Below, piece by piece: positions 40,701-49,700 of a DNA stretch of 55,376 bases. Made by a program: the position numbers. Source of the DNA: Haliotis rubra. Lineage: Eukaryota. The DNA lies in NCBI RefSeq assembly GCF_003918875.1, contig NW_025767222.1, positions 372,001 through 427,376 on the forward strand, read 5' to 3'. Each line of letters starts with the position of its first letter. Within the stretch, counting starts at the first letter, position 1.

Positions 40701-43700
40701 ACTCCTACACAAAGGATAGGGCATTCTACAGAATCTGCCGGAAATCCTACAGGAATCGTAGAAAGATTTAACACGGAACATCCGGAAGACTCATTCATAT
40801 TGATGACTGAATCCCTGTTAGTGGCGGCCATTACGCCTCCCCACCTTATCCATGAAACTGTCACGTCCATGGTTAATATTGGTCATCCTCCAGAACCTTT
40901 CCAACTGCCGACTCCGTTTGATAGATCTGCAAACATCTTCCCGGAGTTCCCGTCTCAGATCGTAGCCACGGAGTCCGAGTACTGTGGAAAGACGTGTGAA
41001 TTTGACTATCAACATACACGTTTCTTTGAGCGCGGAAACTGTGAGATATGTCGATGTGATGAAGAATGTTTTCTGTATGATGACTGTTGTCCCGATTACT
41101 TTATTCTCAGGAATCAGACCTCTGTAGCTGCTCCATATAGCTGTGAAAATACAAGTCCAGACATTGAGAAAACAGATTCAAGTTGGTACTACATGATCAG
41201 ATCGTGCACAGTCACCTCCAGTCCAGGTCTTGTACAGGAGTGCCTCGATCGACACTCTAAAGACTGGGAGCATCAGGTTCCAGTTGAAGACGCAAAGACT
41301 GGACATTTCTATAGGAACAAATTCTGCGCACTGTGCAACAATGTGATAGTTTTTAATAACTGGGAGACGCAATTAATATGCAAATCATATCCAAGCAGTT
41401 TAAAGGAAGCCAGGTCTTCAGAAGAAATTTACAACTCTGCTCTAGAGGATTCTTCTTGTTATATCAAATTTCTACCTTCGGATCCAACTTCTTTGAGAAA
41501 ATGTACCTATCGTGAGGAAAGTGTCATATCGTCATGTAACGTTACAGGGAAATGGGTGTTCTACGACCAAAGGGTGGTGGAAGCCTGCGAGAGGTTTTCT
41601 CACATTGTGCATGGGAAATACAGAAATGTATTCTGTTATGTGCAACAACAACTACGGCTGGCAGTTCATCCTTAGAGAGAATGGGTTTAACCGTATCGTT
41701 GTCGACGCCATTTCCCTGACCACACTGCTGAACTTTGAGAGTCACGATGCCGTTCCAAGAACGCAGCGTGTTGAAGAGCTAACGAATGGTCATTGCAGGC
41801 GTGATCAGGTCCTGGACCACTTTATTGTAAGTATAGCTTTCCATACATGCATAATAAATACACGGTGGCCATGAGTGAGAGAGTGATAAGTGAAGAGTGA
41901 GTTAAATGCAACATGTGTTTTATTTGGGATCATACTTCAGTAACCCATGCTTGTCGTAAGAGGGGACTAACGGGATCGGGTGCCCAGGCTTGCTGACTTG
42001 GTTGACACATGTCATCGTATTCCATTTGCGTAGATCGATGTCATGCTGTTGATCACTGGATATTCTGGTCCAGATTGGATTATGAAGAGACCACCGCCAT
42101 ATAGCTGAGTGTGGCGTTAAACAACAAACTATATGATTGGAACAAGGACGGTTATCTAAACATACCACGTGATAAGTATGGTCAGTCCCTGTTCTCTGGA
42201 CATATACTCTCTCTCCAAAACGAAACGCAGAGGTGATATTGATTTATGAAATAAATTTTAGATAAATTTTAAAATTTCTGTTTGTTATAATTTTGCCATT
42301 ATAATGCTGGTTTGTGTTTATGGAACGAATGCACAGCGCAAAAACGAATTTTCGGAAACTTTAATGCATGTTTACGTTCGAAAGTGTCAACTTGCATGAA
42401 AATGTTATGGAGAAAAAGTTATGGATATGCACGTGCAGTTCTGAGGTAGCGTGCACAGGGGCATTGCCTATACAAGGCCGTTTTGCTTTAGACAGTAATT
42501 TTCATTTTTACGCTAAATAAAAGAATTTCGTTATTGCGCGACTTACTGCTGTAAATGGAAACATTGCCACTGGAAGTCTTGAGGCTGGGTTGTCACAGTC
42601 GGCCGTTTCTGCAACTGTAAGTGCAGTGCCTATTCTGGGGAGAGTGTAGGCGCAAACCATTCGTGATCGTTTACGAGAAGCTGGACTCAGCGCCAGATTT
42701 TGGTCTCGCTCTGCACTGGTGCAATAACGTTCGATTCTGGAATCTGGAGAAATGGCCAACGTGTATGGTTCATTGAAGAATATCATACTCGCAGAAATAT
42801 AACTTTGTGTGCCTTCATGGCAATTTAACTGCTATTTGGCACAGAGACGAAATCTCCAGGATTCACTTGATTTCGATCAATGACCGCCAGAGGGAGTTGT
42901 TCCAGCAAGAAAAAGCAGGCATCACACAGCACTATTCAGTATCTTCAGAATGAGAACATTGAAGTACTTCCGTGGCCTTCCAAATCGTCCTTTCTCAACC
43001 CCATCGAGCATTTGTGGGATCACCTCGACTGACGCGTACGTGAGTTGGCCAGAATTCCATAAGATCGAATTCAAAGACTTATTCAGTCCATGTCGAGACC
43101 AGTGGCGGATCCAGAGGTGTGCGTACGTGCGTGCGTGCGTGTGTGTCCATTCTAAGGAATCGATTTCAGACTGGCAGTTTGACCACTCGGACCATTCCTG
43201 GCTTACGTCCAATACAGTTCCAGGACTGTATGGAACCGACTGAGGGAGCACAACATCTGGCCCTGACGGCATGCGATACGTCCTTTATTGCTCCAACGTC
43301 ACCGAGAGGCACGTCTTGCCTGGTGCAGACAGCATCTACGGTACAAGATTGGGATGGTATTGGGATTGAGACAAGATTGGGATGGTATTTTGTTCACTCA
43401 TGAGTTGATTTTGTTCACTGACGAGTTGACAGCTCTCATGGAAGGGCAAGTGTGTACAGACGGAGTTGTTCAACGTCTACAGTTTGGTGGCGTAGGCGTT
43501 ATTGTATGGAGACACATCACATCTCACAGTCTCATGGACACAACTTGTCATTGTCATTGGCAATCTGACAGGTTCGCAGTACAGGGATGAGATTATTGAG
43601 CCTCATGTGCAGCCGTTCATTCAAGACGTAACTTCACGCTTTAACAAGATAATGCCCGTGCACATGTCGCTTGTGTTGTGACAGATTTCCTGAGACAGCA

Positions 43701-46700: not shown

Positions 46701-49700
46701 AACAACAAGTCACTGAGATACATGCTTCTGAAGAACTGTTGTAGTCCATTGGTCAGTCCTCGTGGTCAGTGCCCGAGGTCAGTGCTCGTAGTCAGTCCTC
46801 GTGGTCAGTGCTCGAGGTCAGTGCTCGTGGTCAGTGCTCGAGGTCAGTGCTCGTGGTCAGTGGTGGAATCATGCTGCTGGTCTGGACTCTCTTTGTACTG
46901 TTGGTGTGGGACAAGAGCCTTCGTTGTTCAACTTCAGCACAGTTGACTCAGCCCGTCAAGGATGAGATAACAACAACTAATAAACCAGGATTTAGTTTCA
47001 AATATCCTACACAACCAAAAGTGACGATGACAAGGGTAACAGCGAGCAATTTAGATGGCGATGAAACCTCAGATGTTACACCAGACACTACGCCCGTCAT
47101 TGCCCCAGGCTTTATACCCCGTTCTGATATTGGAACGTCACAACAGACAAACTCGGGAACAACGTCAACTATGGCCAACAAGCAGCAAGAACCATCTACC
47201 GTAACTGCTACATTTCATTTTATCCTAACTGCACCACCGCCTATGACGCCTCAAGTCAGAAAGCTAAACGCCTTTGACATAGCTTCCAACTATTTTCGTG
47301 AGTTTCCGTCCCAGGTCGTAGCTTCGGAATCTGAGTACTGTGGGCAGACGTGTAACTTTACGTATCCACAAATACGTACTTCAGTGCGCTTAACCTGTGA
47401 CAAATGTCGATGTGACGAAGAATGTGTTCTGTATGATGACTGTTGTCCCGATTACTTGATTCTCAGGAATCAGACCTCTGTGGCTGCTCCATATAGCTGT
47501 GAAAATACAAGTCCAGACATGGACATATTCGCGACGAATTGGTATTACATGATCAGATCGTGCACAGTCACCTCCACTCCAGGTCTTGTACAGGAGTGCC
47601 TCGATCGACACTCTAAAGACTGGGAGCATCAGGTTCCAGTTGAAGACGCAAAGACTGGACATCTGTACAGGAACAAATTCTGCGCACTGTGCAACAATGT
47701 GACAGTTTTTAATAACTGGGACGTTAAATTGAAATGCGATATATATCCGAGCATTTTAAAGGAAGCTAAATCATCAGAAGACATTTACAACATTGCTGTA
47801 GAATCTAGTGCGTGTGATGTCAAGTTTTTACCTACAGGTGGAAGCGTTTTAAGAAGTTGTAACTATCGTGAGGAAAGTTTCATATCCTCATGCAACGTCA
47901 CAGGACAATGGGAGGTTTATGACAGAAGAGTAGTGGAAGCCTGCGAGAGATTCACCCATGTTGTCGCCGGAAAGTACCGCAATGTGTTTTGTTACGTTTG
48001 CAATACACATGAGGACTGGTGTGAAATCCTGCATAAAAGGGTTGCTGCCCTGGGTTGTTGACGGTGTGGGGCTTACCTCACTGTTGGACTTCGGGGATCA
48101 TGCAGTTAAACAGCCGATGGGCATTGTCGAGCTGAAGATAGATGTGTGTGGAAGGAATCAGTTTTATGACAATGTTATTGTAAGTACATGGCGTTTGAAT
48201 ACTTACATATGTAACAATGCACCTAAGTAATCAGTTGTACATTATGTCTTATATACCAATGCTCACGGGATTTACTGCTCCGTGTTCAACTTGGGAACAG
48301 GTGTCTGACCCACAAACGTCTTAAGAAACATACATGGGTTATCTATAAACTTACCACAAAACTGAATGTTACTTTTGAATATTTTGAATTTTTTTTTATT
48401 TTACTAAACATTTGACTGACATGTCAGTTCCTAATTATCAGCATTTTCAAATATCTCAATGTTTTTATTGTCAGATATCTCAAAGTATTCAATCTGTTAA
48501 TGTGTTCTACTTTGTGAGAGTCACTGTCTCTGCAACGGAATTGTGCATTTAATTCTCCTGTTGGCTAAACCCGAAACCCTACTCTTGATAATTTTAACAA
48601 TGAAAGAATAGTTTAAATCTTGTACAATGTACTACCTTTAGACTGGCTTCTGTTCTTCTGAACTCAGCGTCAAACTAAGCATACCAAGCATACTACTTGT
48701 ATACTGATTTCTTCCACGTACCATGAGGTGCGGTGGGGTAGCCTAGTGGTTAAAGCGTTTCTCGTCACACCGAAGAATAGAGGAATGATTTCAACTTTCC
48801 AGTAGTCAACTTCTCTTTCATGCAATATTCCAACAGCCCCAGCCTTTGGTGTTTACATTTCACAACTTTTTAGGTACAACCAACGTGCTTTTTATCAGGA
48901 TTTCAAAGAGCGTCATACCATTCTTGCCAAGAAGTTGTTTGAACAAGGTTACAACATTCAAGGCATCAGCAAAGCTTTCAATATGTTTTATGGCAGACAT
49001 GCGGAGGAACTTTCCAAACTTGATGCTTCGGTGACAAAATGATGTCCGATGAAATTCTTATTTTGACTTATACCATACCTTCCCGAATTACTTCCCGGCT
49101 AGACTAGCATATTTGTATGAGGAATGCTATCGGTGGGGCATGATACGCTCACCTTTTCGCGAACAACTGGTATCTTCACTATATCATAAACACATCCCCT
49201 GTCGTCGTATCGCATGTTGACAATTACTGGATTGTCTGCTCCAGACTCGATTGTTTTACACACAACATCGTGTAGCTGTAACACTGCAGAAACAATTATA
49301 TACTCATGATATAGTCACAATTATACAATCGACTTTGCTTTAAGGAGAAATTTCTTATGGATGAGGAAACCTTTTGGCAGTTTCTATTATAATAATCAAC
49401 AGAGAAATTCTAAAATATTCTACAATATATAGTTTTCAGAAAAATGCCTGTAATAATATTATCCGGGAATGATAATGCCATGCATTAAGAAGTTACCATT
49501 TCGTAAATATATTCAATTGATGTCATTTGATCTCATTGATTGGATCAATATATATATATAACGTTTGTTCGCAATATTTTGAATTCTACGTGTTTCCGTT
49601 TAATTTGTCCCTATTGGGCGTTATTATAGAGACAGTAAGAAGTTTCCGGCTAAATTGTTTATCTCGGACGCTGGAGACAACAGCTGAGCTTTTTCTAATA

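What the first reader, a model, noticed from the sequence alone, without database searches (positions are those of the whole stretch)
41049..47720. Patchwork identity between exons A and B: gene-conversion tract with a hypervariable island
Seen: 41049-41365 and ~47405-47720 are almost identical at nucleotide level, including synonymous sites (CRCDEEC...NNW). The flanking coding sequence is clearly diverged and the stalks are unalignable. Inside the tract one ~19-nt patch is completely different (IEKTDSSW versus MDIFATNW). Inference: recent ectopic gene conversion homogenised the SMB-like core while a short, possibly specificity-determining loop was kept or made different, as in diversifying immune or recognition receptors.
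Basis: partly seen in the sequence, partly recalled or inferred. Interest (0 to 1): 0.65.

Follow-up and report, generated by a model that had tools for sequence, protein, structure and literature searches.

The report
Gene conversion between duplicated receptor exons
Two old duplicate exons that encode the outer part of an abalone-like cell-surface receptor share a 318-base stretch that was recently copied from one to the other, except for an 18-base patch in a variable loop; this is an ordinary kind of event.

Summary
Copies A (41048-41365) and B (47404-47721) differ at 10 of 300 bases outside an 18-base patch (41165-41182) where 11 of 18 differ. The homologous flanks are only 70-72% identical. 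Synonymous divergence is about 0.09 in the tract, 0.75-1.2 in the flanks and about 1 in the patch.

A and B are tandem first coding exons. Each has a start codon, a signal peptide, a DUF8401 ectodomain that begins SMB-like, and a phase-0 GTAAGT donor. They lie upstream of one adhesion-type 7TM exon (51204-52928). The window looks like abalone (Haliotis), not human. A groups with a Haliotis asinina protein and B with a H. rufescens protein, so the duplication is old.

Non-allelic gene conversion is the best explanation. The patch is an unconverted remnant: A's version resembles its H. asinina orthologue. It sits in a length-variable loop of the family. Hypervariability or selection on it is not shown.

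Both exons are frame-broken in this assembly: A by a 26-nt insertion and a 2-nt deficit, B by one extra base. This is a new member of a known kind, of modest interest.

The parts
40372..41826 (+). Copy A: first coding exon (start codon, signal peptide, Ser/Thr-rich stalk, DUF8401 ectodomain, tail). It is the orthologue of residues 1-470 of the Haliotis asinina protein P0002. It is frame-broken in this assembly.
   Evidence: tblastn of P0002: residues 1-64 match 40372-40563 in frame 1, residues 65-406 match 40590-41639 in frame 3, and the tail matches 41641-41826 in frame 1. The donor ATT|GTAAGT has its GT at 41827, phase 0.
40564..40589 (+). First frame break of A: 26 extra bases relative to P0002. 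They partly repeat the sequence found 55 nt downstream (40622-40636).
   Evidence: Gap between the two tblastn matches; three-frame reading and sequence.
41638..41642 (+). Second frame break of A: 2 bases short inside the conserved FCYxCN motif (TATG..TGCAAC).
   Evidence: All relatives read this stretch in one frame.
46871..48179 (+). Copy B: paralogous first coding exon with its own start codon and signal peptide. Its closest relative is the Haliotis rufescens protein LOC125371690 (P0001). Its length of 1309 nt is 1 mod 3.
   Evidence: tblastn of P0001: residues 1-400 match 46871-48043 in frame 2, and residues 401-443 match 48042-48182 in frame 3. The donor ATT|GTAAGT has its GT at 48180, phase 0.
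48033..48045 (+). Frame break of B: one base too many at CATAAAAGGG (runs of A and G). It could be a real mutation or an assembly error.
51204..52928 (+). Shared second coding exon: 290 aa of further ectodomain, a 7TM domain of the secretin/adhesion class, the C-terminal tail and the stop codon. It is the only such exon in the window.
   Evidence: Pfam 7tm_2 at 64 bits against a cut-off of 20.6. The closest solved chains are ADGRL2 and ADGRE5. The acceptor is CACAG|GCG, phase 0. P0002 residues 471-1043 align in one piece at 87% identity. There is no second copy.
41048..41365 (+). Conversion tract, copy A.
47404..47721 (+). Conversion tract, copy B.
41165..41182 (+). Unconverted patch in A (I-EKTDSS-W). 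It is A-type and resembles the H. asinina orthologue.
   Evidence: 11/18 mismatches. A and A' differ at 3/8 residues, A and B at 7/8. The patch is an indel hot spot of the family.
47521..47538 (+). Unconverted patch in B (M-DIFATN-W).
   Evidence: No other copy of either patch is in the window at up to 3 mismatches.
40998..41039 (+). Loop 1 of A, between the second and third Cys of the SMB-like motif. B's counterpart is 47354-47395. It is the second variable loop: low pS but high pN.
   Evidence: Over 40986-41045: pS 0.24, pN 0.36. Family entropy is 3.47 bits with 37 insert columns.

Best explanation
A and B are two old tandem duplicates of the first coding exon of a mollusc-type orphan receptor. 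The receptor consists of a signal peptide, a stalk, a DUF8401 ectodomain and an adhesion-type 7TM domain.

Long after the duplication, one non-allelic (ectopic) gene conversion copied about 318 bp of one exon onto the other. That reset divergence there, synonymous sites included, to about 3%.

The 18-bp patch in the middle is old sequence that escaped. My reading (inferred) is as follows. The heteroduplex spanned the whole tract. The patch, with 11 mismatches in 18 bases and therefore practically unpaired, was repaired separately back to the recipient's own sequence, or was never paired. Its position in a loosely constrained, length-variable loop explains why it was so divergent in the first place.

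Selection for a copy-specific loop is possible but not needed. After the event, copy A seems to have started to decay.

Shown: the mosaic, the dS contrast, the old age of the duplication, the A-type ancestry of A's patch, and the exon anatomy.
Inferred: a single event, the repair mechanism, the direction (unresolved), and any function.
For: 1. dS is 0.09 in both tract halves against 0.75 and 1.20 in the flanks. The Fisher test on synonymous differences gives p=2e-9.
2. The boundaries are sharp and the pattern is far beyond chance: 0 of 20000 shuffles reach the 85-nt identical run. The change-point 2*dlnL is 61.4 for the tract and 43.0 for the hole.
3. The duplication is old. There is no nucleotide similarity outside the coding core. 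In the flanks winA+H. asinina has support 96/100, and the AU test rejects winA+winB (p=0.0004). There are 14 orthology-pattern sites and 0 conflicting ones.
4. In the tract A and B differ at 5/97 residues. A differs from its orthologue at 14/97 and B from its relative at 13/97.
5. The two halves are equally diverged (4/116 and 6/183, Fisher p=1), as one event would give.
6. A's patch matches the H. asinina A-type at 5/8 residues, so it is a remnant and not new.
7. In an alignment with 34 distant family members, the patch has 3.5 bits of entropy and 13 insert columns.
8. The tract is not conserved family-wide (mean entropy 2.4-2.5 bits). It has no Rfam hit and no unusual RNA fold (z +1.35 and -0.43). 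Nucleotide-level constraint is therefore unlikely.
9. The patch is not a shifted or inverted copy (best 7/18 at offset 0, reverse complement 4/18).
10. Regional conversion of tandem ectodomain-encoding first exons, argued from synonymous identity, is documented for protocadherin clusters (PMC1852091, passages read).
Against: - The protein tree of the tract (97 columns) is an unresolved star. The AU test does not reject winA+H. asinina there (p=0.21). The phylogenetic switch is therefore shown only as pairwise counts, and the case rests on synonymous sites within one assembly.
- GC3 is not raised in the tract (0.42/0.48 against 0.52/0.45 and 0.39/0.38). The fugu study used raised GC3 as a conversion signature.
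- The direction cannot be polarised. Sites shared with A' only number 10 and with B' only 7.
- No reads, no second assembly and no orthologous nucleotide sequences could be consulted.
- pS rises stepwise away from the tract: 0.24 and 0.45 next to it, 0.70-0.75 further out. This hints at older, wider conversions, so 'one event' may be too simple.
- Wild-type Drosophila meiotic tracts are reported never to be discontinuous (PMC4154643, passage read). Patchy repair is therefore not a universal mechanism.
Confidence: 0.78

Rival explanations
1. Conversions recur across the core, and selection removes every recombinant that overwrites the patch, because the loop sets copy-specific ligand recognition. 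The island is then kept different by selection rather than by a repair accident.
For: - The patch and loop 1 are the two most variable, indel-prone stretches of the family.
- Loop 1 has an Nd:Sd ratio of 17:3 against 20:30 in the far flanks (Fisher p=0.001).
- The B lineage differs from its H. rufescens relative at 7/8 patch residues.
- The stepwise pS gradient suggests repeated conversions.
Against: - pN/pS in the patch is below 1 (0.44/0.57, 8 codons).
- pN/pS in loop 1 is 1.47 but not different from 1 (p=0.73), as expected for an unconstrained loop.
- Both exons are frame-broken in this assembly. That sits badly with ongoing selection on a fine detail.
- This is a single case, with no population or multi-species nucleotide data.
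Confidence: 0.25
2. Assembly or polishing artefact. Reads of the two copies were merged or cross-mapped, so the assembly shows them more alike than they are.
For: - The window is from a scaffold with an N run at 6514-6673.
- Both exons carry frame breaks, one of them at a homopolymer. Local errors cannot be excluded.
- No reads could be examined.
Against: - Sequences only 70-72% identical, as in the flanks, would not cross-map or collapse. The tract must truly be much more similar than its flanks for the artefact to start.
- Ten single differences are kept in the tract, and the 18-nt patch is kept distinct in each copy.
- Exon 2 (573 aa) and the neighbouring UBE3A-like exon align to relatives without any frame break.
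- A's lesions are a 26-nt insertion and a 2-nt deficit, not typical base-calling errors.
Confidence: 0.08
3. There was no conversion. The tract is held nearly identical by constraint on the nucleotide sequence itself, such as an embedded RNA, an antisense gene or a regulatory element.
For: - The tract is also the most conserved part at the protein level among the four Haliotis-type sequences (A'-B' 21/97 against 49/137 in the flanks).
- The protein tree there is a star.
Against: - There is no Rfam family at gathering score in 38000-55376.
- Folding energy is ordinary (z +1.35 and -0.43, with a control flank at +0.33).
- The antisense ORFs differ between the copies: 40818-41177 in A against 47390-47755 in B, which equals 41034-41399 in A's coordinates.
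- A still differs more from its orthologue (14/97) than from B (5/97).
- The constrained element would have to skip 18 bases.
Confidence: 0.04
4. The conversion was continuous. The patch was rewritten afterwards in copy B, either by a micro-conversion from a third paralogue elsewhere in the genome or by a mutation cluster.
For: - B's patch MDIFATNW resembles neither A, nor A', nor its H. rufescens relative FLEQTSDW (7/8 differ in each case).
- The family is very large (1052 representatives at E<=0.001), so donors may exist.
Against: - No donor is in the window at up to 3 mismatches. The rest of the genome could not be searched.
- The patch length is conserved exactly.
- 11 changes in 18 bases after an event dated by about 3% divergence would need a special mechanism.
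Confidence: 0.1

Closest known systems
Regional gene conversion among the tandem variable first exons of clustered protocadherins (fugu, zebrafish, human)
   Same: - Large tandem paralogous first exons encode ectodomains.
- Part of each exon is homogenised at the nucleotide level, synonymous sites included, while other ectodomain parts stay diverse.
- The argument from synonymous identity is the same (PMC1852091, passages read).
   Different: - Here there are only two exons and one 318-bp tract.
- GC3 is not raised.
- No conserved promoter element lies upstream of the exons.
- Use of both exons with the shared exon is not shown.
- The converted part is the ectodomain core, not the membrane-proximal end.
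- Both exons are frame-broken in this assembly.
Discontinuous (patchy) conversion tracts from independent repair of heteroduplex mismatches
   Same: A stretch of recipient sequence survives inside a converted tract. Such tracts are noted in yeast and in Drosophila Msh6 mutants (PMC4154643, passages read; PMC3183076, search listing only).
   Different: - Those were seen directly in crosses. Here the event is inferred from one genome long afterwards.
- Wild-type Drosophila tracts are reported as never discontinuous.
- The mechanism here is inference.
Multiple-variable-first-exon genes (UGT1, GCNT2, PCDH type)
   Same: - Tandem first exons each have their own start codon.
- One downstream constant exon is present.
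- The donors are in the same phase (PMC1885805, abstract read).
   Different: - No transcript evidence is available.
- That abstract calls the Ugt1, Gcnt2 and Ugt2a variable and constant organisation vertebrate-specific, and conversion is not predominant there.
- The only full model seen (H. asinina P0002) joins the A-type exon to the 7TM exon. The B-type model of H. rufescens (P0001) ends in unrelated sequence.
Adhesion GPCRs (ADGRL/ADGRE type 7TM)
   Same: The 7TM domain matches Pfam 7tm_2. Its best solved relatives are ADGRL2 (E 1.7e-21) and ADGRE5.
   Different: - No GAIN/GPS or hormone-receptor domain is detectable before TM1.
- The ectodomain is DUF8401 with an SMB-like start.
- Invertebrate aGPCR groups without vertebrate relatives are acknowledged in PMC6900090 (passages read).
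Conversion between a gene and a neighbouring pseudogene copy (for example CYP21A2/CYP21A1P, chicken pseudo-V donors); recalled from memory, not looked up
   Same: One partner (A) looks disabled, yet it shares a young tract with the better-preserved partner.
   Different: The direction is unknown here. It is also unknown whether A was already broken at the time of the event.

Membership tests
Non-allelic (interlocus) gene conversion tract | A bounded segment far more alike between the paralogues than their homologous flanks, beyond chance | tested here: met
   21/318 mismatches against 116/408, 2*dlnL 61.4. 0 of 20000 shuffles reach the 85-nt identical run.
Non-allelic (interlocus) gene conversion tract | Homogenisation includes synonymous sites | tested here: met
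   dS 0.09 against 0.75 and 1.20. Fisher p=2e-9.
Non-allelic (interlocus) gene conversion tract | Phylogenetic switch: the flanks group by orthology and the tract groups by genome | tested here: inconclusive
   Flanks: winA+H. asinina has support 96/100, and the AU test rejects winA+winB (p=0.0004). Tract: an unresolved star, and winA+H. asinina is not rejected (p=0.21). Pairwise counts go the expected way (5/97 against 14/97 and 13/97).
Non-allelic (interlocus) gene conversion tract | Raised GC3 in the converted part (supportive signature used in PMC1852091) | tested here: not met
   GC3 is 0.42 (A) and 0.48 (B) in the tract. In the flanks it is 0.52/0.45 and 0.39/0.38.
Non-allelic (interlocus) gene conversion tract | Both copies confirmed as assembled by spanning reads | not testable with these tools
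   No read data are available.
Somatomedin B domain (PF01033) | Score at or above Pfam's gathering cut-off | tested here: not met
   17.9 bits (A) and 21.2 bits (B) against a cut-off of 23.1. A profile search of the PDB finds vitronectin SMB only at E 0.31. The domain is therefore 'SMB-like' only.
DUF8401 (PF28443) | Carries the Pfam family | tested here: met
   The collection's precomputed Pfam label for the window's own A ORF (P0154) and for P0001-P0004 is PF28443.1. The local Pfam copy lacks the model. 1052 representatives reach E<=0.001.
Adhesion GPCR | 7TM domain of the secretin/adhesion class, closest to adhesion receptors | tested here: met
   7tm_2 at 64 bits against a cut-off of 20.6. 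All 22 of 22 PDB matches at E<=0.01 are adhesion GPCRs.
Adhesion GPCR | GAIN domain with a GPS cleavage motif next to TM1 | tested here: not met
   There is no Pfam match in the 290 aa before the 7TM region at E<=10, and none in the whole exon at E<=0.1.
Multiple-variable-first-exon gene | Tandem first exons, each with its own start and signal peptide and a same-phase donor, and one shared downstream exon | tested here: met
   Start codons at 40372 and 46871. Donors at 41827 and 48180, both phase 0. Acceptor at 51203|51204, phase 0. There is only one 7TM exon.
Multiple-variable-first-exon gene | Transcripts joining each variable exon to the constant exon | not testable with these tools
   The only evidence is a predicted H. 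asinina protein (P0002) that joins A-type to 7TM. The H. rufescens B-type model (P0001) ends in other sequence. No RNA data are available.
Multiple-variable-first-exon gene | Open reading frames in the variable exons | tested here: not met
   A has two frame breaks and B has one, relative to their relatives.
Multiple-variable-first-exon gene | Conserved promoter element upstream of each variable exon (as in the protocadherin clusters; recalled) | tested here: not met
   The two 1-kb upstream regions share no k-mer of 10 or more.
Hypervariable loop under diversifying selection | dN/dS significantly above 1 in the loop | tested here: not met
   Patch: pN 0.44, pS 0.57. Loop 1: pN/pS 1.47, p=0.73. 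Numbers are tiny and only two sequences were compared.

The most novel reading that the evidence does not exclude
The locus is a mollusc counterpart of the 'variable first exon' genes. A and B would be alternative, promoter-selected ectodomain exons spliced to one shared adhesion-type 7TM exon. Conversion would keep the DUF8401 scaffold uniform, while two surface loops (40998-41039 and the patch) stay exon-specific and set ligand choice. Species would differ in which first exon is alive: A-type in the H. asinina model, the better-preserved B here.
Probability: 0.2. Interest if true: 0.6.

Novelty: new member of a known kind. Interest (0 to 1): 0.35.

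Why it matters
This is a clean natural example of a short ectopic conversion tract with an internal unconverted patch, in a very large and uncharacterised family (DUF8401 joined to an adhesion-type 7TM). It has three practical uses.

1. **Phylogenies.** Trees of this family will be misled if the converted core is included.
2. **Annotation.** A second first exon sits inside the 9.4-kb intron of the A-to-7TM gene. Both first exons need checking with cDNA.
3. **Ligand contacts.** Two loops are marked out as the places to look for ligand contacts in DUF8401.

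It does not open a long-standing question.

Tried and rejected
**Structure prediction.** Whether the patch is an exposed loop therefore rests only on family variability. No fold search was possible.

**Other closed or empty look-ups.**
- Cluster members of P0001 and P0002 could not be listed because the database was switched off.
- The Atlas did not hold the window's protein. The stored homologue P0001 gave only the family name DUF8401.

**Further copies or donors in the window.**
- tblastn found no third A/B-like exon and no second 7TM exon.
- Neither 20-mer patch recurs at up to 3 mismatches.

**Alternative accounts of the patch or the frame breaks.**
- The patch as a compensated frameshift or an inversion was rejected.
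- A short intron to explain the frame changes was considered and rejected from the sequence as read. The possible GT..AG pairs are 23-25 nt or have the wrong phase. All relatives read through in one frame.

**Nucleotide-level constraint.** No Rfam hit, ordinary folding energy, and antisense ORFs that are not shared between the copies.

**Direction of conversion.** It could not be polarised from the two orthologue proteins.

**More Haliotis orthologues.**
- 4 proteins of 728 candidates of 460-2000 aa.
- 1 of 37 candidates of 133-424 aa, and that one was the window's own ORF.
- 16 of 2476 candidates at E<=1e-30 for the 7TM part, of which only P0002 is a named full-length Haliotis protein.
- No A-type protein from H. 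rufescens and no B-type from H. asinina turned up. Given the word index and the dependence on gene models, this is no evidence of absence.

**Literature.**
- 'DUF8401': 0 papers.
- 'somatomedin B' + 'adhesion GPCR' + 'mollusc': 0 papers.
- Two wider searches listed nothing on this family.
- Haliotis + 'adhesion G protein-coupled receptor' + 'expansion' listed 4 papers, none on it judging by title and abstract start.
- Noonan et al. 2004 on protocadherin conversion is not held. It is known to me only from the reference list of PMC1852091.
- Supplementary files were not consulted.

**Collections not searched.** The genome-contig collection holds only bacteria and archaea and was not used.

Full report
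**What the window is**

The DNA is eukaryotic and not human-looking. The closest proteins to the two exons and to the 7TM exon come from the abalones Haliotis rufescens and H. asinina, followed by other gastropods. There is one N run (6514-6673), and it was left alone. Spliced models were never joined. Each exon was searched on its own, so no search or fold of a joined A+exon 2 or B+exon 2 protein was made.

**Check of the observation**

The copies align without gaps at an offset of 6356 over 40917-41642 / 47273-47998, with 137 mismatches in 726 sites.

| Segment | Coordinates in A | Identity |
|---|---|---|
| 5' flank | 40917-41048 | 70.5% |
| Tract | 41049-41365 | 93.4% |
| 3' flank | 41366-41642 | 72.2% |

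- A change-point search puts the tract at 41048-41365 (21/318 mismatches against 116/408).
- It puts a hole at 41165-41182 (11/18 against 10/300 in the rest).
- No 18-nt window reached 11 mismatches in 200000 simulations at the tract's rate.
- The 85-nt identical run was reached in 0 of 20000 shuffles.
- Outside the coding core blastn finds nothing but dispersed repeats shared with other parts of the window.

**Synonymous sites**

| Segment | dS | dN |
|---|---|---|
| 5' flank | 0.75 | 0.30 |
| Tract, 5' half | 0.09 | 0.03 |
| Patch | 1.05 | 0.66 |
| Tract, 3' half | 0.09 | 0.03 |
| 3' flank | 1.20 | 0.22 |

Synonymous differences are 5.0 of 59.2 sites in the tract against 47.3 of 84.8 in the flanks (p=2e-9).

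In finer pieces pS forms steps: 0.70 (40917-40982), 0.24 (40986-41045), 0.09 (tract), 0.45 (41367-41501) and 0.75 (41502-41639). This may mean that older, wider conversions preceded the last one.

**Anatomy**

A (40372-41826) and B (46871-48179) are first coding exons.
- Each starts with ATG and a hydrophobic signal peptide.
- Each then has a Ser/Thr-rich stalk and a Cys-rich domain with 19 Cys.
- Each ends at ATT|GTAAGT in phase 0.

The Cys-rich domain is DUF8401 (PF28443). That label is precomputed on the window's own ORF P0154 and on its relatives and is named. Its start is only SMB-like, because the Pfam Somatomedin_B scores are below the cut-off.

The only 7TM exon in the window is 51204-52928, with acceptor CACAG|GCG in phase 0. 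It matches 7tm_2, and its closest solved relatives are adhesion GPCRs. No GAIN/GPS domain is detectable.

The 1043-aa H. asinina protein P0002 is collinear with A followed by this exon. It is 84.2% identical to the A domain and 84.6% identical to the ectodomain part of exon 2, but only 71.4% identical to the B domain. So A plus exon 2 is the orthologue of that gene, and B lies inside its 9377-nt intron, 3024 nt upstream of exon 2.

B's nearest relative is the H. rufescens protein P0001 (76%). That protein uses the same donor position but continues into unrelated sequence.

**Age of the duplication, and the tract**

- In the flanks (137 columns) winA groups with H. asinina (96/100). An A+B clade is rejected (AU p=0.0004).
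- There are 14 sites with the orthology pattern and none against it.
- Far-flank pN/pS of 0.14-0.22 shows that both copies were under constraint for most of their history.
- In the tract (97 residues without the patch) A and B differ at 5. A differs from A' at 14, and B from B' at 13.
- The maximum-likelihood tree of the tract is nevertheless an unresolved star. The orthology grouping is not rejected there (p=0.21).

The case for conversion therefore rests mainly on the synonymous contrast. GC3 is not raised, and the direction cannot be told.

**The patch**

- A's IEKTDSSW matches the H. asinina A-type IAKEDSKW at 5 of 8 residues. B's MDIFATNW differs from A, from A' and from the H. rufescens FLEQTSDW at 7 of 8. 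For A, at least, the patch is retained ancestral sequence.
- It is not a shifted or inverted version of the other copy. It has no other copy in the window.
- I aligned the two window copies and P0001 with 34 distant members, chosen as the short ones (249-462 aa) among the 150 listed (alignment A1). In that alignment the patch has mean entropy 3.50 bits and 13 insert columns.
- A second loop (domain residues 28-41, 40998-41039) has 3.47 bits and 37 insert columns. Both are higher than any other segment compared.
- The patch's 11 mismatches only just exceed the flank maximum of 9-10 per 19 nt.
- Its pN/pS is below 1. Loop 1 has pN/pS 1.47, which is not different from 1 (p=0.73), although its Nd:Sd ratio differs from that of the far flanks (p=0.001).

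These are loosely constrained loops. Positive selection is not shown.

The two tract halves are equally diverged (4/116 and 6/183). This favours one event whose heteroduplex spanned the patch, with the almost unpaired 18 bases restored or never paired. That is inference. Discontinuous tracts are known from yeast and from mismatch-repair mutants, but they are reported as absent in wild-type Drosophila (PMC4154643, passages).

**State of the exons**

Relative to their relatives, which all read the exon in one frame:
- A has 26 extra bases at 40564-40589. They partly repeat the sequence 55 nt downstream.
- A also lacks 2 bases at 41638-41642, inside the FCYxCN motif.
- B has one base too many at CATAAAAGGG, near 48033-48045.

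Exon A is 1455 nt (0 mod 3), but its middle 1.05 kb is out of frame with its ATG. Exon B is 1309 nt (1 mod 3).

There are further hints that A is decaying:
- Within the tract, 3 residues are changed in A alone and 0 in B alone.
- A has lost an NVT sequon that B, A' and B' keep.
- 7 of the 10 tract differences are A/T in A against G/C in B.

These numbers are small. Exon 2 and the neighbouring UBE3A-like exon show no frame break. Whether the three breaks are real cannot be settled without reads. A's two are not of the homopolymer-error kind, and B's is.

**Rivals**

- An assembly artefact cannot create 93-97% identity out of 70% identity, but it could have polished away some differences.
- Nucleotide-level constraint finds no support.
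- A selected specificity loop, or a later rewriting of B's patch from a third paralogue, remains possible.

**Comparison with known systems**

The closest known picture is the regional conversion of protocadherin variable exons (PMC1852091), together with the multiple-variable-first-exon layout (PMC1885805, abstract). The layout features are met here. Open frames, a shared promoter element and transcripts are not met or not testable.

**Not in print, as far as searched**

No paper names DUF8401. None links SMB-like ectodomains to mollusc adhesion-type GPCRs in the searches made.

**Verdict**

This is a real, well-delimited ectopic conversion tract with an unconverted patch. It is a new member of a known kind and of modest interest.

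Noticed in passing
window 40372-41826 and 46871-48179: Both first exons are frame-broken relative to their Haliotis relatives. A has a 26-nt insertion at 40564-40589 and a 2-nt deficit at about 41640. B has one extra base at about 48033-48045. Exon 2 is intact. This may mean a receptor gene in the course of dying, first-exon turnover, or local assembly errors.
   Followed up: partly
window 40986-41045 / 47342-47401: The loop between the early Cys residues of the SMB-like motif has pS 0.24 but pN 0.36 (17 non-synonymous against 3 synonymous differences). pS rises in steps away from the tract, as if older and wider conversions had been followed by fast amino-acid divergence.
   Followed up: partly
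window 46750-46862: A 13-nt minisatellite (TGGTCAGTGCTCG, 8.7 copies, 87% matches) ends 8 nt before B's start codon. Copy A has nothing like it.
   Followed up: no
window 15565-16893: A large open exon matches human UBE3A (E6AP) residues about 232-541 (PDB 8jrn, E 4e-85). The neighbouring gene is a UBE3A-like HECT ligase.
   Followed up: no
window 34073-34147, 53763-53837, 54759-54833; also 39361-39460, 41935-42040, 53314-53423, 53941-54046: Several copies of short dispersed repeats lie around and between the exons, in direct and inverted orientation. I take one family to be tRNA-derived and SINE-like from its sequence alone.
   Followed up: no
window 43267-43590: Between A and B lies an ORF with a weak match to the Tc3-type transposase HTH (PF01498, E 0.006, below the cut-off). 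It is probably a decayed Tc1/mariner element.
   Followed up: no
window 36273-36716 and 37291-37665: Two open frames upstream of A have a weak PAN/apple match (E 0.026). I took one of them to have a C-type-lectin-like look. They are possibly exons of another secreted-protein gene.
   Followed up: no
window 55311-55376: A (CTGGAG)n microsatellite with 11 copies runs to the end of the window.
   Followed up: no
protein P0001 (H. rufescens LOC125371690), residues about 445-522: The B-type gene model of H. rufescens leaves the conserved donor position and ends in 78 residues unrelated to the receptor. No counterpart lies in this window. To me it looked transposase-like, but Pfam gave no match.
   Followed up: partly
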